This document shows positions 3,354 through 35,838 of a DNA stretch of 64,000 nucleotides, piece after piece (the first letter of the stretch is position 1; each line of letters starts with the position of its first letter). The notes under the pieces are model-generated. The model was not told where the DNA came from. It did not search any database and was given only the letters and a program-made list of their open reading frames with translations. The stretch lies in the NCBI GenBank assembly GCA_964291275.2, contig OZ219799.1, positions 2,585,145 through 2,649,144 of the forward strand, read 5' to 3'. This DNA comes from Rhodothermales bacterium. GTDB taxonomy: Bacteria > Bacteroidota > Rhodothermia > Rhodothermales > Bin80. A program made the translations under genes and the position numbers.

Positions 3354-4697
3354 ATGAATAGAACATGTTATTTGATAAGCCTCCTTGGGTTGCTGCTTTT
3401 TGCAGCCAGCAGTACAGCTCAACAGGCTCCACGGATCGATATCGATTACGCTTCATTCGCTTATGACGAACAGGAGTCACTGGTTGAACTTTATATGGCT
3501 ATCGAAGCGAGTTCGCTTACTTATGAAGCCAGTGATTCTCTTTTCACCTCTACTATTCCACTCGAGCTAATCTTGCATAGCTCCTCCGACGCGGATTTGG
3601 ATGTATCTGCGGAACGCGTTGTTTGGGAGCAGCAGATGGATCTGCAGTTTGCTGTGATCGATTCGTCTGTGATTACAGAAGGGCAGGTGTTTTTGCGTCA
3701 AGTCCGGCTAACTGTCGTGCCCGGTGAGTACGAATTACAAGTAGTCATGCCCCCTTTGGGCCAAGATCCAGTACAAGCAAACCGTGATGTAATCATACCA
3801 GACTATGGTCGGAAGGAAAGCTGCGCGCTTTCAGACATAACACTGGCTTCCAGGATTACTCCTTCGGAGGATAGAGAGGATCCATTCTACAAGAATGGGC
3901 TCCACATACGCCCAAATGCCAGCCAACTGTACGGTGAAGGAGCTGCTAACCTCTTCTATTATGCTGAGGCCTACAATACTGCATGTGCAGCTTCGGATAC
4001 AGACGAGTATACTACGCTTATATACATTTCCAAATTGAACAAATCGGAGCCCATCCTGGGGTTACAGAAGCACTCGAAACGAGCAGTGCGTCCAACGGAT
4101 GTTCTTGTCGGTACGTTTGATTTGTCTGATCTTGTTTCTGGCCTGTACATTCTGCACATGGAAATCCGTGATAAGACCAATGAATCCAAGGTTGAACAGA
4201 CTCGCAAGTTCTCTGTCCTAAATCCTGTTGCAGATTCGACATGGATGCGGGCTGTTTTTACCATGGATATATTCGACCCAAGCGGTTATGCAATTATGGA
4301 GGACGAGAGAGAGCAGGGGGAGATACAGATCAGACCTGTAGAAGATCTTGCAGCCCTCCGGATGTTTGATGAGCCGCCGGAGCTCATTGGAGGTCTTGGT
4401 GTGTTGCAAGGTAAAGTAAGGTATCCGGAAGCCGCAAGACGAGCAGGGATTCAAGGGCGGGTGATTGTACACTTCACGGTAGACGAGAAGGGTGATGTTC
4501 GTGATGCCATAGTTCATCAAAACATGGGAGGTGGATTGGACGAAGAAGTCATCCGGGTTATTACAGAGCATGCAAAATTCAAGCCAGGCATCTATCAAGG
4601 AAACAAAGTTTCTGTGAGAATGGCGATGCCAGTTATATTCGGGTTGAGGAGGGGTTTGGGATACCCGGATTTTCCTGCACTCTTCAGAGCAAATTAA
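3354..4697 (+). CDS. TonB C-terminal-domain secreted protein, paralog copy 2 (intact)
   Basis: ATG at 3354 is followed by a signal peptide (MNRTCYLISLLGLLLFAASSTAQQ). TonB_C motifs are present at the C-terminus (PELIGGLGVLQGKVRYPEAARRAGIQGRVIVHFTVDEKG). Confidence 0.8.
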   Translation: MNRTCYLISLLGLLLFAASSTAQQAPRIDIDYASFAYDEQESLVELYMAIEASSLTYEASDSLFTSTIPLELILHSSSDADLDVSAERVVWEQQMDLQFAVIDSSVITEGQVFLRQVRLTVVPGEYELQVVMPPLGQDPVQANRDVIIPDYGRKESCALSDITLASRITPSEDREDPFYKNGLHIRPNASQLYGEGAANLFYYAEAYNTACAASDTDEYTTLIYISKLNKSEPILGLQKHSKRAVRPTDVLVGTFDLSDLVSGLYILHMEIRDKTNESKVEQTRKFSVLNPVADSTWMRAVFTMDIFDPSGYAIMEDEREQGEIQIRPVEDLAALRMFDEPPELIGGLGVLQGKVRYPEAARRAGIQGRVIVHFTVDEKGDVRDAIVHQNMGGGLDEEVIRVITEHAKFKPGIYQGNKVSVRMAMPVIFGLRRGLGYPDFPALFRAN

Positions 4698-5052
4698 GAG
4701 ATCCCAGATGGCAATAAACACAGTTTTAGAACTTCTCAGTTGAAGCACAATCAGGAATTTCCATCTCAGTGCTTTCACGAGAACGAAGGACGTTTCTCAA
4801 TGCCTCGGCTTCCTTCGCATCTACACTGAGTCCGTACTTACGTTTGACCTCAATGATCCGATTGACAAACCAACACTGGTTGTGTTCGGGTAACCATTCA
4901 GCCGCATCTTTCGCGATCTTTTCCCAACGATTTAACGCAGGAGCCGCGTGCGTAAGATTTAGAAAATCACACGCGAATTCTATTCTATCGGTTCTACCGC
5001 AATTATTGTGGAATAATTAATTTTGGGTTCCACTAAAATATAGCGTACTTCA

Positions 5053-6129
5053 ATGGAATCTTATCTGGATTTGACACGACTCACCTAGGACTGGGGGACG
5101 ACTGGAAGATTGACAGGGTGCTACTGGATGAGCAGAAACAGCGGGTAGACATTTACATTTCGCACTTGGGGGGTGCGTTGGTTTGCCCTGAGACGGGGGA
5201 GACCGGGACGCTCTATGATCATCGAAAAGAGCGGACATGGCGACACTTGGACTGCTACGAATTCAAGTGTTTTGTCCATTGTCGGGTTCCCCGGATAGAT
5301 GTGAGTGTGCGGACGATTAAGGCGCCCTGGGCGAGTGCTTCGAATCGGTATACGGATGCGTTTGAGCTGTGGACGATTAATTTATTGCAGGCGACGAAGA
5401 ACCAGACGAAGACGGCGAAGCTACTTTGCAGTAAGTTTGACACGGTCAATCGGATCCTTCACCGCAGTGTAGCGCGTGGGATGAAGCGGAGGTTGCTGGA
5501 CGCTGGACGCGATTGCGCGTGTGAGCATAGATGAGAAGGCCTTTCAGCGTGGGCATTCCTACGCAACTATTGTTAGTGATTCGGCGCGTGGCGTGGTCAT
5601 TGATATCGGGGAGAGCCGGGACAAAGTTAGCACAAAAATGCTGTTAAATCGTCTTCTGGCCGCGAAAAAGGGGGCGGTCACGACGATTACGACGGATATG
5701 TGGAAGGTCTACATTCCACGGTGCAGGAGTTATTCCCCAAGGCCAGTCTGATCCACGATCGCTTTCATTTGATCCGGTACCTCAACAAAAGGATTGATCA
5801 GGTTCGCCGCAGAGTGGTGAAGCAGCATAAGGAACTCAAATACAGTCGCTATGCACTCTTGAAAAACGAACAGAACCGAACGCAAAAGCAAGATGAAATT
5901 TTCAAAGTCATCCAGGAGGCCAATTTGCAGGTCAGCATTGCCTGTCGGTTGCGAGAGGAGTTCAAGGCGATCTTTGGATGTAAAACATTGTCCGATACAA
6001 AGCAGTACTTCCAACGATGGTTTAAAAGTGTAAAAGAATCGGCCGTGAAGGAGATCATGAAAGTAGCCGAGATGTTTGAACGACATCTCACAGGCGTGTG
6101 TAATGCACTTTGTCATGAACAATCCAATG
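5053..6129 (+). pseudogene. ISL3-type A transposase, 5' exon part, three frameshifts
   Basis: ISL3 motifs (LVCPETGETGTLYDHRKERTWRHLD, IDEKAFQRGHSYATIVSD, ITTDMWKVY, HDRFHLIRYLN) are spread over four frame segments (5053-, 5118-5534, 5521-5751, 5700-6129). The ORF is broken at 6129/6130 by the intron. Confidence 0.8.
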
Positions 6130-6642
6130 GTGTGCCACGAAAATGCATGGAGGTAAGTCAATGACGTAGCTAAAATGTATTGAACTGTGCAAGGGATGGA
6201 GGAAGGCCCTCCACAACCGCTGTACAGGCGGGGGTTGTAAACCACCCACATCTGCGGCATTTAAGAGGTGTCGTGGTGAGCGAGTTGGGAAAAGGTAGGC
6301 GTAGGAACCTATCAGGTATGAATCGCAGAGTCGAATGCAAATGAACCATTGATGATGTGTCGAAAAGTTTTAGATGATGGTCAAAACCGGGGTAGCGTTG
6401 GAATCCCGGGACGAGGTTAGCGGGAGCCTGTTTACTGGCCAACTGGCCTCCGGCATAGAGATGGCGAGACTGCGATTTGGGCCCATGTACGGAACGTGGG
6501 AACGTGTCGGGGTGATGCAAAGGGAGCGTGGCAAGCAGGCAGTACCTGTAAGCCATTGAGTACCGAGGCACTCCACACGGGCGGATCACTCCGTAGTAGT
6601 GATGAAATTCTTGTAATGGGGATGGAGCGAAGGGGGTGAACC

Positions 6643-8004
6643 ATGCAGCAAGGAGCGAGGAAGCAACCGAGAGGGAGGACTTCGGCGCAACAAGCAAAGC
6701 CGTTTCCAGTAACCAAGCGCCAAGTTTGGGACGCGTGGAAGCGAGTGAAGGCAAACCAGGGAGGGGCAGGGATTGATGAGCAGTCTATTGCGGACTTCGA
6801 GGAGAATCTTGCGGATAATCTCTACAAGATTTGGAATCGGATGGCATCGGGCAGTTATTATCCGAAGCCGGTCCGCCGCGTGAACATTCCGAAGCCGGGC
6901 GGAGGTATTCGTCCCTTAGGAATACCCACGGTGGCAGATCGGGTGGCCCAGATGGTGGTTAAACAGGCCTTGGAGCTGGTACTGGAACGCGAGTTCCACC
7001 CGGATTCCTATGGATACCGGCCGAACAAGTCGGCTCATGATGCGCTGCGTCAGACGCGAATGCGATGCTGGAAGTGGGCATGGGTACTGGACATGGATAT
7101 CAAGTTGTATTTTGACACGATAGATCATGCCCTATTGATGAAAGCGGTCCGGCGTCATACGGATCAGAAGTGGGTGCTTTTGTACATAGAGCGCTGGCTG
7201 ACGGCACCGGTGATTCATCCAGACGGGACGGAAGCGGCACGGGATGTAGGAACCCCGCAGGGCGGGGTCATCAGTCCACTGTTGGCCAATCTGTTTCTGC
7301 ACTATTCGTTTGATAAATGGATGGAGCGGAATTATCCGCAGATTCCATTTGAGCGGTATGCAGATGATATTGTGTGCCACTGCACGAGTGAGGCACAGGC
7401 CCGCGAACTTTGGCAAGTGCTCAAGGGACGTTTTACGGCCTGTAACTTAATGTTACACCCGGAGAAGACCCGGATTGTATATTGCAAAGCAACGGGTTGT
7501 GAAGGCACGTATGCGGACGTATCCTTTGATTTCTTGGGCTACACGTTTCGACCTCGAAAGACAAAGGGTCGAGGAGGCAAGATCTTTCTTGGGTTCAATC
7601 CGGCGATCAGCCGGAAGGCGGCGAAAGCCATACGGGAGACCATACACAGTTGGGGGTTGGCTCGCATGAGTCCACTCTCAATGGAACAAATCGCGGGTAG
7701 GATCAATGCGGTGGTACGTGGATGGATTACCTACTATGGTGCATTCTTCAAATCAGAACTGAGCAAGGTTCTGCTTAGCATTGACGAACATCTTATCCGG
7801 TGGATGATGCGGAAGTATAAGCGCTTCCGTGGACATTGGAGGAGGTCATGGCGATGGGTAAGGAAGATTGCACGTCAAAATTCGGGTCTATTCGTGCATT
7901 GGACGTTTCTTTATGGTTCACCTTTGTTCAATTCCAAACGACTGCATGGTAAGAGATTTTATAGCAGGACTCCTTACTGGTTGAGCTCCATGAGCTTGTA
8001 TTAA
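6643..8004 (+). CDS. Group II intron reverse transcriptase/maturase
   Basis: RT motifs seen: GGIRPLGIPTVADRVAQ, LDMDIKLYFDTIDH, GTPQGGVISPLLANLFL, YADDIVCHC. A maturase X-like region follows (RGWITYYG). No endonuclease domain is present. The last ~20-30 aa may be altered by the IS110 insertion. Confidence 0.9.
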   Translation: MQQGARKQPRGRTSAQQAKPFPVTKRQVWDAWKRVKANQGGAGIDEQSIADFEENLADNLYKIWNRMASGSYYPKPVRRVNIPKPGGGIRPLGIPTVADRVAQMVVKQALELVLEREFHPDSYGYRPNKSAHDALRQTRMRCWKWAWVLDMDIKLYFDTIDHALLMKAVRRHTDQKWVLLYIERWLTAPVIHPDGTEAARDVGTPQGGVISPLLANLFLHYSFDKWMERNYPQIPFERYADDIVCHCTSEAQARELWQVLKGRFTACNLMLHPEKTRIVYCKATGCEGTYADVSFDFLGYTFRPRKTKGRGGKIFLGFNPAISRKAAKAIRETIHSWGLARMSPLSMEQIAGRINAVVRGWITYYGAFFKSELSKVLLSIDEHLIRWMMRKYKRFRGHWRRSWRWVRKIARQNSGLFVHWTFLYGSPLFNSKRLHGKRFYSRTPYWLSSMSLY

Positions 8005-8031
8005 CTTTGTCCATTAACCAGAAACAGTCCA

Positions 8032-9174
8032 ATGCTACCTCACATCAACTCTTCCACTTCTGCATCCACGATCTCTGTCGGTATGGATGTGCATAAAAGG
8101 ACCATTGCGTTGTGTGCTTACAATGCGCGTACAGGCGTGATTTTGGATGAGCGGGGATTGCCGCATGATCTGCCGAAGGTCACTAAATATCTCCGGAAGG
8201 TCCAAGATCGTCATGGTCAGGTACGCTCTTGCTATGAAGCGTCTTCCTGTGGATTTGGCTTGCAACGCGCGTTACAGGCCCGCGGGATCTCGTGTGAAGT
8301 AATTGCGCCCTCGTCCATTCCGCGTCGTCCAGGCGAGCGCGTCAAAACGGATCGTCGAGATGCCAAAAAGTTGGCAACGCTGTACGCTGCTGGATTGCTG
8401 ACGATTGTTTGTATTCCAGATGAGGAACAGGAGGCCATCCGGTCCTTGTTGCGTTGTCGGGGAGATCTGGCAGAAACGATCACCCGGACCAAGCAGCGGA
8501 TTCTGACTTTCCTTCAGACACGCGGGTTGCAGTATCCAGGCAAGACCAATTGGACCAAGACCTTTCACACATGGATTGGCGCCTTACCGATGGCCGAGAT
8601 TGACCAGATCACGCTTCAAACGTATCTGCACCAATTAGATCAACTAACGCAAGAAGTACGCAGAATTGAGGGGGACTTAGCCGCGCAGGCCGAACGCGCC
8701 CCCTATCAAGCGCCCGTCAAGGTCTTGATGGCATTCCGAGGGATTGGTTTGGTGACGGCGTTGACCCTGGTCTTCGAGTTGGGAGATCTCCGTCGTTTTG
8801 CACATCCACGTCAGTTGATGGCATATCTGGGCCTGGTGCCAAGCGAGCACAGTTCAGGCAATCACACGCAACGGGGAGGCCTCACCAAAACTGGAAATGT
8901 CCATGTGCGAAATGCGGTCATCTCCGCCGCATGGAAGTATGCAACCCCACCCCGCCGCAGTCGTGTGCTACGACAACGGCAAGAAGCGATCTCTGCTGAG
9001 GTGATCTCCGTGGCATGGAAGGCGCAGCGTCGACTGTACAAACGTTTTCACAAACTGAGTCAGACCAAAGCACGATGTGTTGCCAATGCAGCGGTCGCGC
9101 GCGAACTGGTCGGCTTTCTCTGGGAAGCACTGCGCTTGGAAAACCCTTTGATCACCACCCGTGCGAGGGTTTGA
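8032..9174 (+). CDS. IS110 family transposase (DEDD recombinase)
   Basis: Motifs seen: VGMDVHKRTIALC, CYEASSCGF, VKTDRRDAKKLA, GLVPSEHSSGNHTQRGGLTKTGNVHVRNA. Confidence 0.9.
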   Translation: MLPHINSSTSASTISVGMDVHKRTIALCAYNARTGVILDERGLPHDLPKVTKYLRKVQDRHGQVRSCYEASSCGFGLQRALQARGISCEVIAPSSIPRRPGERVKTDRRDAKKLATLYAAGLLTIVCIPDEEQEAIRSLLRCRGDLAETITRTKQRILTFLQTRGLQYPGKTNWTKTFHTWIGALPMAEIDQITLQTYLHQLDQLTQEVRRIEGDLAAQAERAPYQAPVKVLMAFRGIGLVTALTLVFELGDLRRFAHPRQLMAYLGLVPSEHSSGNHTQRGGLTKTGNVHVRNAVISAAWKYATPPRRSRVLRQRQEAISAEVISVAWKAQRRLYKRFHKLSQTKARCVANAAVARELVGFLWEALRLENPLITTRARV

Positions 9175-9183
9175 ATCATGGTT

Positions 9184-9378
9184 TATGGAGAAGCGATTGG
9201 CACGGTAGGAGGGCCCACGAACACACCTTGCGATAGCCGGCATCTTGCCGGTGAGTGCGCGTTTAGAGATTGTGGCAGCTCCGCACGAACCCGAAATCAT
9301 GCGTTACAGCCCTTTGGGGTCAAAGCACGCGAATACCAGACTGATTAACCGTCGAAGTTGCCAAGTCGCTTCTCCATA
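9184..9378 (+). ncRNA. Candidate IS110/IS1111-type bridge (seek) RNA in the 3' non-coding end of the IS
   Basis: A 19-bp closing stem with one bulge joins tatggagaagcgattggca (9184-9202) and tgccaagtcgcttctccata (9359-9378). An inner 6-bp hairpin lies at 9237-9251 (ccggca tct tgccgg). The direct repeat cacgaac occurs at 9216-9222 and 9284-9290. A T7 tract lies at 9392-9398. Only about 40 nt of non-coding sequence lie upstream of the transposase, against about 255 nt downstream. Confidence 0.35.
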
Positions 9379-9463
9379 AGCCAAAATATATTTTTTTGAT
9401 GTAGATTTACAAAGAACATAGCACCGTGTAAGCTCTACCTGATCTGGAGAGTCCTACTATACC

Positions 9464-9496
9464 AGCCGTGTGAGTTGAGAGGCTCACGCACGGTTC
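9464..9496 (+). ncRNA. Group II intron domain V (catalytic hairpin)
   Basis: agccgtgtgag ttga gaggctcacgcacggttc matches the domain V consensus: an AGC triad at the 5' base, a 2-nt bulge in the 3' strand, a tetraloop-type cap and a ..ACGGUUC 3' end. Confidence 0.8.
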
Positions 9497-9520
9497 TGTG
9501 AGAGCCGGGGGGTGAAATCC

Positions 9521-10955
9521 CATAAGCGTTAACTTGTTTCCTATTTGATTATCTTTAGGTATCTCTACACGGGAATTGTCGTGATTTCAGCATTCTGAAT
9601 TCTAACCGATTTGGTAGAATGTTGGATATACCTGTGATTGATCATTCAACCATCGTAATCAGATGAAGGGAACCGTAACACGCGCGCCCGAGGAAGAGGA
9701 TTGGGCGGTTGTGCTCTCGTTTTTACCGAAAAATTGGCAGGAGTTGGCCGAGGAATCTGGTGCATTGCGCGGGCTACGTAAGGATAAGTCGCCGGAATGC
9801 CTACTTCGAACCTTGTTGATCCATTTAGGATGTGGTCATTCGTTACGAGAGACGGTCATACGAGTTCGTCAGGCTCAGATTGCGGATCTATCTGCGGTCG
9901 CATTGTTCAAGCGCCTGAAGAAGTCTCGTAGGTGGCTTCATGCGATGTGTGTTGCGCTGTTTCAGGAGCATGGAGTTGGCGTATCGGCGGGAGTGGGACG
10001 TCAAATGCGTGCGTTTGACGCGACCCACATCAGTGAGCCGGGACGTACGGGATCTCTATGGAGACTCCACTACAGCATAACCCTACCTGCATTGGGTTGC
10101 GATTTTTTCAATTTAACAGCGACGAAAGGAAAAGGGACGGGGGAGTCCTTGAAGCAATTTCCCATCCGGTCAGACGACTATATTTTGGTGGATCGGGGAT
10201 ATGCAACCGCTCTGGGAATCCAGCATGTGGAGGCATCTGGCGGCTATGTGACCGTGCGGGTCAATACTGGAGCCTTGCAGTTCGAGACGAAGCCCGGCCA
10301 GTCCTTTGATTTATTAGCCTCCGTGGAATCGATCAAACAGGCAGGGAAGGCGGGGGTCTGGACGGTATTCATCAAAACCTCACCCCCAATCCAAGGACGT
10401 ATTTGTGCATTGCGCAAAGCAGACGAAGCCATCCAAGAGGCAGAGAATCGGATCTTAAAGACGGCAAAGCGCAAGGGGCATCGACCACGAGATGAAACCT
10501 TACGTTATGCGCGCTATGTTATCCTGTTTACGACCTTCCCGGTCGATGAATTTTCGGAGAACGATATCCTGGAATGGTATCGATTACGCTGGCAGGTGGA
10601 ACTGGTCTTCAAACGATTCAAATCATTGGCCCAACTGGGACATCTGCCGAAATTAGATGAGGAAAGTTCACAGGCGTGGCTCTACGGGAAGCTAATGGTT
10701 GCACTGTTGACCGAAAAAATCATCCGACATGCACGGACATTTTCCCCCTGGGGCTATCCAGTGCAGACGAAGTGCATGGAGAGACTTTAAGTTTGCACTG
10801 AATCAAGTTGTGCGGGCAATTGAGCCACACTACGCCTTGAAGGAAATGATTCAGCATTGGCCTATCATTTCCAAGTCGCTGGCAGAGCCACCCAGACTCA
10901 GAAACTATCAAATTGAACGATATTTTTCTGTCACTAAAACAAGTTAACGCTTATG
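9521..10955 (+). mobile_element. IS4-family element with perfect 19-bp IRs and 10-bp TSD, inserted in the intron domain VI loop
   Basis: IRL is cataagcgttaacttgttt (9521-9539) and IRR is aaacaagttaacgcttatg (10937-10955). The TSD ggtgaaatcc lies at 9511-9520 and 10956-10965. Confidence 0.9.
9663..10790 (+). CDS. IS4 family DDE transposase
   Basis: Motifs seen: FDATHISEPG, ILVDRGYAT, and the YREK signature YRLRWQVELVFKRFK. Confidence 0.85.
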   Translation: MKGTVTRAPEEEDWAVVLSFLPKNWQELAEESGALRGLRKDKSPECLLRTLLIHLGCGHSLRETVIRVRQAQIADLSAVALFKRLKKSRRWLHAMCVALFQEHGVGVSAGVGRQMRAFDATHISEPGRTGSLWRLHYSITLPALGCDFFNLTATKGKGTGESLKQFPIRSDDYILVDRGYATALGIQHVEASGGYVTVRVNTGALQFETKPGQSFDLLASVESIKQAGKAGVWTVFIKTSPPIQGRICALRKADEAIQEAENRILKTAKRKGHRPRDETLRYARYVILFTTFPVDEFSENDILEWYRLRWQVELVFKRFKSLAQLGHLPKLDEESSQAWLYGKLMVALLTEKIIRHARTFSPWGYPVQTKCMERL

Positions 10956-10981
10956 GGTGAAATCCCCCCCGGCCACTTGAC

Positions 10982-11118
10982 CCAGAGCGGAGCGCATCTA
11001 TGGGAAGATCTAGGAGGTCAAGACGATCGGCAGAGGATACAGAAAATTTGAAAATTTCAGATCTGCAATTCTTTTCTTCTGTGGAAATCTAGACCTCTAT
11101 CCACAACATTCCCGGTAG
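10982..11118 (+). pseudogene. ISL3-type A transposase, 3' exon part (in-frame TAG at 11011-11013)
   Basis: It translates to (A)RAERIYGKI*EVKTIGRGYRKFENFRSAILFFCGNLDLYPQHSR. This matches the C-terminus of copy 2 (AKAERIIGKIQEVKTIGRGYRRFENFRLAILFFCGGLELYPQYS). Confidence 0.8.
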
Positions 11119-34844: not shown

Positions 34845-35838
34845 TCACGAATATTGTGGATAGAGTTCAAGCCCTCCACAGAAGAAGAGAATTGCAAGCC
34901 TGAAGTTTTCAAATCTTCTGTATCCTCTGCCGATGGTTTTGACTTCTTGGATTTTGCCGATGATTCGTTCTGCTTTGGCGTTGGACTGTTCATGACAAAG
35001 TGCATTGCAGACGCCGTCAAAATGTCGTTCAAACATCTCTGCAATTTTGATAACTACCTTTACAGCTTCCCCTTGAACACCGGTATGCCAGAGTTTACAA
35101 TACGTCTTCGCTTCGGCGAAGGAACTACATTCAAAGATCCCCTTGAATTCTTCAAGTAACCGCCAAGAGAAACTGACCTGGAGATTGGATTCCTGGAAGA
35201 TATTGAAGATCTCATCTTGCTTTTTGGTACCGTTCTTTTCATTCTTCAAAAGCACACAACGCGTCCCTTTCAATTCGGAATGCGTCTTCACTTCTCGCGT
35301 GCCTACGAGGTTGTTCGCTTTATTGAGATACTGGATTAAGTGAAAGCGATCATGAATCAGGGGCGCTTTGGAAAATGCATGCTTTACGGCCCCGGTATAG
35401 GCCTTCAACATATCAATCGTAACCGTTTCTACATCCTCCTTAATTATTGCAAAAATGCTGTCGAACAGCGCTATAGCGCGCTTTTTGGTCCGTCTCTCGC
35501 CCACATCAATGACCACACCCCGCGTAGTATCACTGACGATGGTCGCATACACATGGTTCAGCTTCTTGGACTTCACATCTATGCTTACGTGCCGAATTCC
35601 TCTCAGGGATCGTCGCCACAGTCCACGCGCAACACTGCGATGCATCATTCGACTGAGCTGGTTAAATCCACACCGAAGCAGCTTCGCCGTTTTCGTCTGG
35701 TTCTTGTTTGCCTCCAGTAAATCAATCGCCCAGCGCTCATAGGCATAGGTGACCCGACTGGATGCATCCGCCCAAGGAACCGTAATCGTCTTGATTCCCG
35801 CAGATGACTGGACCCTAGGAATCCGGCAATTAATAAAA
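34845..35838 (-). pseudogene. ISL3-type A transposase, C-terminal part (interrupted by ISL3-B)
   Basis: An uninterrupted frame runs from the insertion site to the TGA at 34845 (NCRIPRVQSSAGIKTITVPWADAS...HEQSNAKAERIIGKIQEVKTIGRGYRRFENF...). The first ~40 aa of the ORF-track entry 34845..35960 are read-through into ISL3-B. Confidence 0.8.

What the first reader, a model, noticed from the sequence alone, without database searches (positions are those of the whole stretch)
9175..9430. IS110-family element with a long structured 3' non-coding end: candidate bridge/seek RNA
The DEDD transposase (8032..9174) has only about 40 nt of element sequence upstream but about 255 nt downstream. Within the downstream part, 9184-9202 and 9359-9378 form a 19-bp stem with a single bulge enclosing about 156 nt. 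That interior contains a tight 6-bp hairpin (9237-9251) and a direct heptamer repeat cacgaac (9216-9222, 9284-9290). A T7 tract follows at 9392-9398. Work published in 2024 on IS110/IS1111 elements showed that the non-coding end encodes a two-loop guide RNA specifying both target and donor, and that IS1111-type members carry it downstream of the recombinase. The layout here fits that arrangement. This particular RNA, its guides and its target (a hairpin inside a group II intron) are uncharacterised.
Basis: partly seen in the sequence, partly recalled or inferred. Interest (0 to 1): 0.7.

Follow-up and report, generated by a model that had tools for sequence, protein, structure and literature searches.

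The report
Guide RNA gene of an insertion sequence
The structured stretch after the transposase gene is very probably the two-loop guide ("bridge" or "seek") RNA of an IS1111-type insertion sequence that landed in a group II intron, which makes it a well-supported new example of a mechanism described in 2024 rather than a new kind of system.

Summary
Window 9179-9385 (+) is the conserved non-coding RNA of an IS1111-group (IS110-family) insertion sequence.

- **Structure:** 37 of 46 base pairs show compensatory changes, including all 18 pairs of the outer stem.
- **Target loop:** The variable strands of one internal loop track each copy's insertion flanks.
- **Donor loop:** Two conserved strands in the multiloop track the element's own ends across three end variants.

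The element is 1510 bp, 7956-9465, with AG (7954-7955) repeated at both junctions. It has 76 nt upstream and 291 nt downstream of the gene. The "flanking hairpin" is the element's own subterminal inverted repeat.

The true target is the 5' foot of intron domain V. This copy's guide matches that site only imperfectly: 6 of 9 and 3 of 5 positions.

Expression and activity are inferred, not shown. Verdict: a new member of a known kind, of moderate interest.

The parts
7954..7955 (+). Left copy of the AG core at the junction between target and element.
   Evidence: AG is present at both junctions. Keeping one copy restores domain V.
7956..8031 (+). Left end of the element, 76 nt. It starts ATTTTATAG and contains the left subterminal inverted repeat (7960-7972) and a hairpin (7982-7998).
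   Evidence: Similarity to the independent copy L002 begins here. The hairpin was listed as terminator-like.
8032..9174 (+). IS110-family (IS1111-group) DEDD transposase, 380 aa. Motif residues are D19, E69, D107, D110 and S275-G276, the last within GLVPSEHSSG.
   Evidence: Pfam and NCBIfam hits; 40% identity to ISCARN28; C-terminal match to IS621 8wt6; motif positions.
9179..9385 (+). Bridge/seek RNA gene. This is the full-length match to the covariance model built here.
   Evidence: The only hit of model R1 in the window, 204.2 bits, E = 4.9e-54.
9180..9197 (+). Outer stem P1, 5' arm. It pairs with 9365-9382.
   Evidence: All 18 pairs show compensatory changes and 92% of cells are paired.
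9365..9382 (+). Outer stem P1, 3' arm.
9208..9282 (+). Target-binding module. It consists of helices P3 (9208-9211 with 9279-9282), P4 (9215-9218 with 9272-9275), the internal loop, P5 (9229-9232 with 9258-9261) and the P6 hairpin (9236-9252).
   Evidence: Helices 4-7 are 92-100% paired with compensatory changes.
9220..9228 (+). 5' strand of the target loop, AACACAC-CT. It is predicted to pair with the top strand of the core plus the right flank, AG-GTGTGTT.
   Evidence: This is the hypervariable column block. In relatives its reverse complement equals AG plus the right flank. In this copy it matches 6 of 9 positions.
9262..9270 (+). 3' strand of the target loop, TTTAG-AG-AT. It comprises a mimic of the left flank, the core, and an invariant AT equal to the first two bases of the element.
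   Evidence: The variable 5-mer matches the last 3-5 nt of the left flank in relatives. AGAT is invariant.
9283..9300 (+). 5' strand of the donor-binding multiloop. AAATC (9294-9298) is complementary to GATTT, which is the core G plus the element's left end.
   Evidence: It covaries with the left end across families: AAATC with GATTT, AATATC with GATATT, GTATC with GATAC.
9301..9330 (+). Hairpin P7/P8 separating the two donor-binding strands.
   Evidence: Helices 8-10.
9331..9348 (+). 3' strand of the donor-binding multiloop. ATACCAGA (9333-9340) equals the element's right end, the core, and the first base of the left end.
   Evidence: The RNA hexamer equals the right-end hexamer in 45 of 51 loci where both were read, across three variants.
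9349..9361 (+). 3' side of helix P2, with the near-invariant bulge CGTCGAAG (9350-9357).
   Evidence: Invariant columns. I infer it is a protein-contact motif.
9386..9465 (+). Rest of the right end. It holds the T7 tract (9391-9397, lineage-specific), the right subterminal inverted repeat (9449-9461), and the end ...TATACC-AG with the right core copy at 9464-9465.
9466..9499 (+). Target: group II intron domain V, lacking only its first G, which remains at 7953.
   Evidence: Rfam RF00029 hit at 9461-9549. The reconstructed empty site aligns with element-free domain V sequences.

Best explanation
Window 7956-9465 is a 1510-bp IS1111-group insertion sequence of the IS110 family.

**The RNA.** Its 3' non-coding end encodes, on the transposase strand, an RNA of about 205 nt (9179-9385). 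This RNA works like the published bridge or seek RNAs. An 18-bp stem (P1) and a short helix (P2) close a three-way junction.

**Target recognition.** One arm of the junction carries an internal loop.
- Its 5' strand (9220-9228) pairs with the top strand of the target, covering the AG core and the right flank.
- Its 3' strand (9262-9270) has the same sequence as the left flank plus the core, so it pairs with the bottom strand.

**Donor recognition.** The single-stranded segments of the junction recognise the joined ends of the excised element.
- AAATC (9294-9298) pairs with the left end.
- ATACCAGA (9333-9340) mimics the right end, the core and the first base of the left end.

**Recombination.** The DEDD/serine recombinase bound to this RNA would bring the circular element and the target together and exchange strands at AG.

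**What is shown and what is inferred.**
- Shown here: homology, structure covariation, correspondence of guides to flanks and to element ends, the element boundaries and the insertion site.
- Inferred from the IS621, ISEc11 and ISPa11 literature: transcription or processing of the RNA, protein binding, the circular intermediate and the chemistry.

**This copy.** It sits at the 5' foot of domain V of a group II intron, a site that only partly matches its own guide.
For: **Element identity**
- The transposase belongs to the family: NF033542 at 252.6 bits, plus PF01548 and PF02371.
- It has the IS1111-type motif GL-P----SG (motif defined in PMC11187229).
- It is 40% identical to ISCARN28, which Durrant et al. 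list as IS1111 group with the bridge RNA in the right end. It is 27% identical to ISPa11.

**Boundaries**
- The independent copy L002 shares only 7953-9471.
- Deleting the element and one AG gives GGTAAGAGCCGTGTGAG... This aligns without gaps to element-free domain V sequences in L041 and L008.
- The subterminal inverted repeat is 13 nt, 12 of 13 complementary.

**RNA conservation**
- 9178-9376 is 81-84% identical in copies whose coding sequence is 72-73% identical.
- nhmmer finds the region after the transposase gene in 68 of the 79 loci.
- The model also hits full-length in Armatimonadota, Nitrospinia, Planctomycetota and proteobacterial plasmids.

**Structure**
- On a plain MAFFT alignment, 90.8% of cells are paired, against 34-44% when the partners are slid. 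28 of 46 pairs carry compensatory changes.
- On the model-fitted alignment of 47 sequences, 95.1% are paired and 37 of 46 pairs are compensatory. None of 500 shuffles reaches any of the five measures.
- A near-invariant U-G pair (44 of 46 sequences) and many G-U pairs fit the + strand only.

**Target loop**
- The reverse complement of the 5' strand equals AG plus the right flank. Examples: L003 8 nt, L027 8, L038 8, L015 7, L021 7, L051 7.
- The 3' strand equals the last 3-5 nt of the left flank.
- Own pairings beat cross-family pairings: 5.55 against 3.0 for the longest match, and 2.5 against 0.34 for the suffix match. Mann-Whitney p = 6e-20 and 5e-30.

**Donor loop**
- TACCAG, CACCAG and CATCAG in the RNA match the same hexamer at the right end in 45 of 51 loci.
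- The 5' strand covaries with the left end.

**Agreement with the literature**
- The order, with the top-strand match lying 5' of the bottom-strand match, is the IS1111 order (PMC11187229).
- Donor nucleotides lying in a multiloop is what was reported for IS1111 members (PMC11208160).
Against: - There are no expression data. No promoter or terminator was identified for the RNA.
- No Rfam 15 family matches 9175-9430, even at E <= 1. The published bridge-RNA and seekRNA models were not available to run.
- This copy's guide matches its own site poorly. The right side matches 6 of 9 in register, with two mismatches next to the core. The left side matches 3 of 5.
- Two other independent copies of the same element also match imperfectly. 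L002 has AG|GCCGTGTTG and L080 has AG|GTGAGCAAC.
- Some relatives sit in sites that fit a sibling's guide instead of their own, for example L010.
- The statistics use related, non-independent copies.
- The alignment is fitted to the model. The MAFFT result is the unbiased control.
Confidence: 0.9

Rival explanations
1. The region 9175-9430 is part of the group II intron (domain IV), not of the insertion sequence.
For: It lies between the intron's reverse-transcriptase ORF (6643-8004) and domain V (Rfam hit from 9461).
Against: - The same sequence follows the transposase gene in L002 and L080 (same element, different flanks) and in the homologous elements of other genomes, whatever the flanks. 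Rfam reports no intron in L002.
- Removing 7956-9465 restores a canonical domain V junction.
- The reading frame of the intron protein runs on into element sequence only because of the insertion.
Confidence: 0.01
2. The structure is only a 3' UTR element of the transposase mRNA, such as a terminator, a stability element or a translational regulator, with no guide function.
For: - It starts 5 nt after the stop codon.
- In this lineage a long stem is followed by a T7 tract.
- No separate promoter was found.
Against: - The T-tract is absent in most relatives and the stem was not called terminator-like.
- A terminator does not explain hypervariable loop strands that track each copy's flanks.
- It does not explain strands that covary with the element ends.
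- It does not explain the conserved three-way junction.
Confidence: 0.03
3. The conserved pairing acts at the DNA level, as hairpins or protein-binding sites in the right end of the element, rather than in an RNA.
For: IS1111 elements do use DNA features of their ends, namely the subterminal inverted repeats. The donor-loop segment is identical to the right end, so the DNA could act as a decoy end.
Against: - G-U pairs are frequent and strand-specific. One pair is U-G in 44 of 46 sequences, and several pairs alternate between G-C and G-U. These pairs would be broken on the opposite strand.
- Family members were shown to co-purify with RNA from this region (PMC11187229).
Confidence: 0.03
4. The RNA is of the bridge/seek type, but this copy is a stranded passenger. 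It reached domain V by an off-target event or by a sibling's guide acting in trans. It may now spread only with the intron.
For: - The guide matches the site imperfectly.
- L010 shows a copy sitting in a site that fits a sibling's guide.
- The same intron-plus-element composite occurs in L001 next to a different 3' exon.
Against: - The transposase ORF, the RNA (204 bits, among the best scores) and both repeats are intact.
- Copies 95-99% identical exist at other sites (L002, L080), which suggests recent activity.
Confidence: 0.25

Closest known systems
IS1111-group elements with a predicted right-end bridge RNA, in particular ISCARN28 and ISCps8 (Durrant et al. 2024, PMC11208160, Fig. 6 and Supplementary Table 5)
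   Same: - The transposase is 40% identical to ISCARN28 and shares the LGLVPSEHSSG motif.
- The RNA lies in the right end.
- Subterminal inverted repeats are present.
- The donor-binding nucleotides sit in a multiloop and the target-binding nucleotides in an internal loop.
   Different: - This is a different host lineage (relatives are Rhodothermales genomes) with different guides and a different target.
- I could not compare the RNA sequences or structures directly, because the figures and published models are not held.
- At 380 aa the transposase is longer than the 330-350 aa quoted for typical IS1111 members.
seekRNA of ISEc11, ISPa11 and ISKpn4 (Siddiquee et al. 2024, PMC11187229)
   Same: - The RNA comes from the non-coding region downstream of the transposase gene.
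- One segment is complementary to the top strand of the target and lies 5' of a segment complementary to the bottom strand.
- The two matches overlap at the insertion point.
- Insertion occurs at the foot of a hairpin-forming target.
   Different: - The transposase is only 27% identical to ISPa11.
- The characterised short seekRNAs are 82-96 nt. Here the target module alone is about 75 nt, and the conserved unit closed by P1 is about 205 nt, closer in size to their 'long seekRNA'.
- Nothing here is experimentally tested.
IS621 bridge RNA (Durrant et al. 2024; Hiraizumi et al. 2024, PMC11208158)
   Same: - Both use a two-part guide for target and donor and a shared core dinucleotide.
- Both use a DEDD plus serine recombinase (C-terminal domain match to 8wt6, E = 6.6e-8).
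- The invariant AT after the core in the target loop equals the first bases of the element. This resembles the 'handshake guide' idea.
   Different: - The IS621 RNA is in the left end, upstream of the gene.
- Its order of top-strand and bottom-strand matches is reversed.
- Both of its loops are simple internal loops, its core is CT, and it has no long subterminal repeats and no closing stem.

Membership tests
IS110 family, IS1111 group (insertion sequence) | DEDD (RuvC-like) N-terminal domain plus a C-terminal Tnp domain with a conserved Ser-Gly. | tested here: met
   PF01548 (E = 4e-20), PF02371 (E = 1.1e-21) and NF033542 at 252.6 bits. Residues D19, E69, D107, D110 and S275-G276. The serine aligns with the SG of IS621.
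IS110 family, IS1111 group (insertion sequence) | IS1111-type C-terminal motif GL-P----S(T)G. | tested here: met
   GLVPSEHSSG at residues 267-276. The motif is as defined in PMC11187229.
IS110 family, IS1111 group (insertion sequence) | Subterminal inverted repeats of 7-17 bp. | tested here: met
   7960-7972 and 9449-9461, 13 nt and 92% complementary, set 4 nt in from each end. They are conserved in relatives.
IS110 family, IS1111 group (insertion sequence) | The longer non-coding region lies downstream of the transposase gene (right end longer than left end). | tested here: met
   Left end 76 nt, right end 291 nt, after the boundaries were corrected with L002 and the empty-site reconstruction.
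IS110 family, IS1111 group (insertion sequence) | The transposase groups with IS1111-group members rather than IS110-group members. | tested here: met
   The test used pairwise comparisons only, with no tree. Identity is 40% to ISCARN28 (IS1111 group, bridge RNA in the right end) and 27% to ISPa11. The match to IS621 covers the C-terminal domain only, at 35 bits.
IS110 family, IS1111 group (insertion sequence) | Site-specific insertion without a conventional target duplication, with a short core shared by both junctions. | tested here: met
   AG is present at both junctions here and in relatives. One copy restores the empty site.
IS110 family, IS1111 group (insertion sequence) | Circular intermediate with a junction promoter. 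| not testable with these tools
   No convincing sigma-70-type junction promoter was seen by eye or. Confirmation needs PCR across the joined ends.
Bridge RNA / seekRNA | A conserved structured RNA encoded in the long non-coding end, on the transposase strand. | tested here: met
   The G-U pattern fits the + strand only.
Bridge RNA / seekRNA | A loop with two strands matching opposite strands of the target on either side of, and overlapping, the core. | tested here: met
   This holds at family level. For the window copy the match is partial: 6 of 9 on the right and 3 of 5 on the left.
Bridge RNA / seekRNA | Segments matching the donor, meaning the two element ends around the core. | tested here: met
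   In the window, ATACCAGA matches 8 of 8 bases of the joined ends, and AAATC is complementary to GATTT. Both covary with the ends across three end variants.
Bridge RNA / seekRNA | IS1111 polarity, with the top-strand-complementary segment lying 5' of the bottom-strand-complementary segment. | tested here: met
   9220-9228 (top-strand complement) precedes 9262-9270 (bottom-strand complement). Compare PMC11187229.
Bridge RNA / seekRNA | A match to the published covariance models or to a curated RNA family. | not testable with these tools
   The published models are not held. Rfam 15 gives no hit in 9175-9430 at E <= 1. A model built here hits full-length, but that result is circular for the window itself.
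Bridge RNA / seekRNA | The RNA is expressed, binds the transposase and is required and reprogrammable for transposition. | not testable with these tools
   This needs RNA-seq, co-purification and transposition assays.

The most novel reading that the evidence does not exclude
The element may spread as a passenger of a mobile group II intron. The same composite, an intron with this element at the foot of domain V, occurs in the window and in L001 (95% identical) next to unrelated 3' exons. Either the intron retrohomed while carrying a 1.5-kb RNA-guided insertion sequence between domains IV and V, or the element repeatedly hits domain V despite a poor guide match. Separately, the RNA belongs to a structural class found in several phyla: a three-way junction closed by a stem, with two paralogous binding sites. 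That class has not been described in detail.
Probability: 0.15. Interest if true: 0.55.

Novelty: new member of a known kind. Interest (0 to 1): 0.35.

Why it matters
The finding gives an uncharacterised IS1111-type element a full annotation. That covers exact ends, the AG core, the guide strands for target and donor, and a covariation-supported structure for an RNA of about 205 nt shared across several phyla.

This is useful raw material for anyone mining programmable recombinases. IS1111-type bridge RNAs are less well characterised than that of IS621.

It also shows that simple comparative analysis can read the "code" of such an RNA. Within this family of elements, copies sit in imperfectly matched sites, which bears on specificity.

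It does not reveal a new mechanism.

Tried and rejected
- **Rfam.** Scans in E-value and gathering modes gave no RNA family hit in the region.
- **Exact-protein look-up.** The transposase sequence is not on record.
- **Other copies in the window.** None was found.
- **Metagenome pattern scan.** Scanning for the 20-nt guide region returned one true extra copy (L080) and two chance matches (L081, L082).
- **Defining this lineage's preferred target.** Three independent right flanks (window/L001, L002, L080) gave no clean consensus. Alternative registers or bulges between AACACACCT and the flanks did not give a convincing perfect match.
- **Second handshake.** I looked for a match between the two bases after the core in the donor loop and the right flank. 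None was consistent.
- **Promoter and terminator.** I looked for a sigma-70-type promoter at the joined ends and a terminator after P1. Nothing was convincing.
- **Domain IV hypothesis.** Rejected.

Full report
**1. What is in the sequence**

The ORF at 8032-9174 (+) encodes a 380-aa IS110-family transposase. It hits Pfam DEDD_Tnp_IS110 and Transposase_20, and NCBIfam NF033542 "IS110 family RNA-guided transposase" at 252.6 bits.

The transposase gene sits inside a group II intron.
- Rfam finds intron domains I-IV at 6198-6317 and domains V/VI from 9461.
- The ORF at 6643-8004 is the intron's reverse transcriptase/maturase (TIGR04416, 433.6 bits).

The segment 9175-9430 folds to -85.9 kcal/mol, with z = -4.13 and none of 200 shuffles folding as well. 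The T7 tract is one base off, at 9391-9397.

**2. Element boundaries (corrected)**

Seventy-nine related loci were fetched from public genomes, mostly Rhodothermales metagenome-assembled genomes.

- L002 is an independent copy, 94.5% identical. It shares only window 7953-9471.
- Multi-copy relatives all begin AGAT(N)(N)TATAG and end ...TA(Y)A(Y)CAG.
- Deleting 7956-9465 and keeping one AG gives ...GGTAAGAGCCGTGTGAGTTGAGAGGCTCACGCACGGTTC... This aligns without gaps to element-free domain V sequences in L041 and L008.

The element is therefore 1510 bp. AG is present at both junctions (7954-7955 and 9464-9465). The left end is 76 nt and the right end 291 nt.

The 13-nt inverted repeat 7960-7972 / 9449-9461 matches at 12 of 13 positions. 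It is the element's subterminal inverted repeat, not a target hairpin.

The actual target is the first base pair of domain V. The intron protein's reading frame would natively end ...HGKSRVS* inside domain V. I read that by eye.

**3. The RNA is conserved and structured**

- In copies whose coding sequence is 72-73% identical, 9178-9376 is 81-84% identical.
- nhmmer finds the region just after the transposase gene in 68 of the 79 loci.
- RNAalifold on 28 representatives predicts 35 pairs, 20 of them with compensatory changes.
- I wrote a 46-pair structure from the window sequence and counted it on a plain MAFFT alignment of 22 sequences. It gave 90.8% paired cells, against 34-44% when the partners were slid. 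28 pairs had changes on both sides. At most 1 of 500 shuffles reached any measure.
- A covariance model built from that alignment hits the window once, at 9179-9385 (204.2 bits).
[quoted passage not shown] Those plasmid transposases are 42-45% identical to this one.
- On the model-fitted alignment of 47 sequences, 95.1% of cells pair and 37 of 46 pairs have compensatory changes. All 18 pairs of P1 covary. This alignment leans towards the structure, so one search is the unbiased control.
- Frequent G-U pairs, including one that is U-G in 44 of 46 sequences, fit only the + strand.

**4. Anatomy**

| Feature | Window coordinates |
|---|---|
| P1 | 9180-9197 with 9365-9382 |
| P2 | 9200-9205 with 9349-9352 and 9360-9361 |
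| Near-invariant bulge CGTCGAAG | 9350-9357 |
| Target module: P3, P4, internal loop, P5, P6 hairpin | 9208-9282 |
| Single strand | 9283-9300 |
| Hairpin P7/P8 | 9301-9330 |
| Single strand | 9331-9348 |

P1 and P2 close a three-way junction. One arm is the target module. The rest of the junction is the two single strands either side of P7/P8.

The two binding sites look paralogous. Each has the form ACGA(A)-guide-UGCG ... CGCG-guide-AG-A(U/C)-UG.

**5. The loops read as guides**

*Target loop.* Across loci, the reverse complement of the hypervariable 5' strand equals AG plus the right flank.

| Locus | Guide strand | Right flank | Match |
|---|---|---|---|
| L003 | ATATGCCCT | AG\|GGCATA | 8 nt |
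| L027 | GAAGAGCC | GGCTCTTC | 8 nt |
| L038 | CCGATACT | AG\|TATCGG | 8 nt |
| L015 | – | – | 7 nt |
| L021 | – | – | 7 nt |
| L051 | – | – | 7 nt |

The variable part of the 3' strand equals the last 3-5 nt of the left flank. It is followed by an invariant AGAT, which is the core plus the first two bases of the element.

Own pairings beat cross-family pairings.
- Longest match: 5.55 against 3.0.
- Left suffix match: 2.5 against 0.34.
- Mann-Whitney p = 6e-20 and 5e-30.
- The copies are related, so these p-values are generous.

*Donor strands.* These covary with the element ends.
- RNA TACCAG, CACCAG and CATCAG equal the right-end hexamer in 45 of 51 loci where both were read.
- RNA AAATC, AATATC and GTATC are complementary to the left ends GATTT, GATATT and GATAC.

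*Agreement with the literature.*
- The polarity, with the top-strand match lying 5' of the bottom-strand match and the two overlapping at the insertion point, is the one reported for IS1111 seekRNAs (PMC11187229).
- Donor nucleotides in a multiloop is what Durrant et al. note for many IS1111 members (PMC11208160).
- The invariant AT resembles the handshake guides of IS621 (PMC11208158). That comparison is my inference.

**6. The window copy specifically**

- The donor strands match well. ATACCAGA matches 8 of 8 bases of the joined ends, and AAATC is complementary to GATTT.
- The target strands predict TTTAG-AG-GTGTGTT, but the site is GTAAG-AG-CCGTGTG. That is 3 of 5 on the left and 6 of 9 on the right, with two mismatches next to the core.
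- Two more independent insertions of the same element also fit only partly. L002 has AG|GCCGTGTTG. L080, 98.7% identical, has AG|GTGAGCAAC.
- Either this lineage tolerates mismatches, or a sibling's RNA acted in trans. L010 sits in a site that fits a sibling's guide.
- The gene, the RNA and the repeats are all intact, so the copy could be active.

**7. Comparison and classification**

- The transposase is 40% identical to ISCARN28 and 27% to ISPa11. It matches IS621 only in the C-terminal domain.
- Durrant et al.'s Supplementary Table 5 lists ISCARN28 and ISCps8 as IS1111 group with the bridge RNA in the right end.
- All sequence-testable defining features of the IS1111 group and of bridge/seek RNAs are met.
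- Expression, protein binding, the circular intermediate and reprogrammability could not be tested.
- The published covariance models were not available, and Rfam 15 has no matching family.

**8. Rivals**

- Intron domain IV is refuted.
- A plain terminator or 3' UTR element does not explain the covariation of guides with flanks and with ends. The T-tract is also not conserved.
- A DNA-level structure is disfavoured by the strand-specific G-U pairs.
- I cannot exclude that this particular copy is a stranded passenger.

**9. Verdict**

The boundaries and the target needed correction. This is a new, well-annotated member of a known kind, IS1111-type elements with a right-end bridge/seek RNA. Interest is moderate to low for novelty, with some value for the detailed reading of the guide strands and for the side observations listed separately.

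Noticed in passing
L046:3821-5590; also L026, L033 and L067 (genome OZ244626): A second, different IS110-family element (364-aa DEDD transposase) is inserted inside the bridge-RNA gene of three different host element subfamilies. The insertion is always at ...ACACC-AG|GTAATAT...AAACG-AG|ACTGAT, which is exactly the core of the donor-loop coding DNA. Its own 3' non-coding region carries TATCAGTCT, the reverse complement of AG+ACTGATA (9 nt). About 30 nt later it carries ACACCAG+GT, which is the target's left flank, the core, and its own first two bases. So one element's guide is programmed against another element's guide-RNA gene.
   Followed up: partly
window 9520-10956: An IS4-family element is inserted into domain VI of the same intron. 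Its transposase ORF is at 9663-10790, and it has perfect 20-bp terminal inverted repeats, CCATAAGCGTTAACTTGTTT and its inverse. The flanking duplication is about 8 bp (GTGAAATC). The intron really ends near 10983, not at 9549.
   Followed up: partly
window 5118-6164 and after about 10984: The intron's exon appears to be a frameshifted ISL3-family transposase gene, present as three ORF fragments with ISL3 Pfam domains. The locus is therefore a four-deep nest: ISL3, then the group II intron, then the IS1111-type and IS4-type elements inside the intron. A stretch 88% identical to 6069-6127 lies at 34981-35039 on the opposite strand.
   Followed up: no
L001:1-1707 compared with window 7829-9521 and 10957-10983: The same intron-plus-element composite (95% identical, without the IS4 insertion) occurs in Rhodothermaceae bin80, but it is followed by an unrelated 3' exon. 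Either the intron moved while carrying the element, or domain V was hit twice independently.
   Followed up: partly
window 7982-7998; L003 about 2452-2466: A hairpin just inside the left subterminal repeat (TGAGCTCCATGAGCTTG, followed by a T-rich tail) is listed as terminator-like. It has a counterpart in the OZ244148 relatives (GAGCTACATTAGCTC). It may shield the transposase gene from read-through. TAACTTTG at 8002-8009 resembles a Bacteroidota-type -7 promoter element.
   Followed up: no
window 9097-9128: A 32-nt stretch at the 3' end of the transposase gene, encoding ...ARELVGFLWEA, is 94% identical at the DNA level in elements whose proteins are only about 53% identical. It lies 52-83 nt upstream of the RNA. 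It could be a conserved protein motif or a signal for making the RNA.
   Followed up: no
L010, L036, L040 (related loci): Some copies sit in flanks that match a sibling's guide rather than their own. L010 has the guide AAACTACCTT but the flank AG|GGCATA. This suggests guiding in trans or recombination between copies.
   Followed up: no
L008:439-1730 and 4641-5255; L041:203-278: Several group II introns lie close to copies of the element in other Rhodothermales genomes. In L008 a fragment of the element, including its RNA, starts about 25 nt after an intron's 3' end.
   Followed up: no
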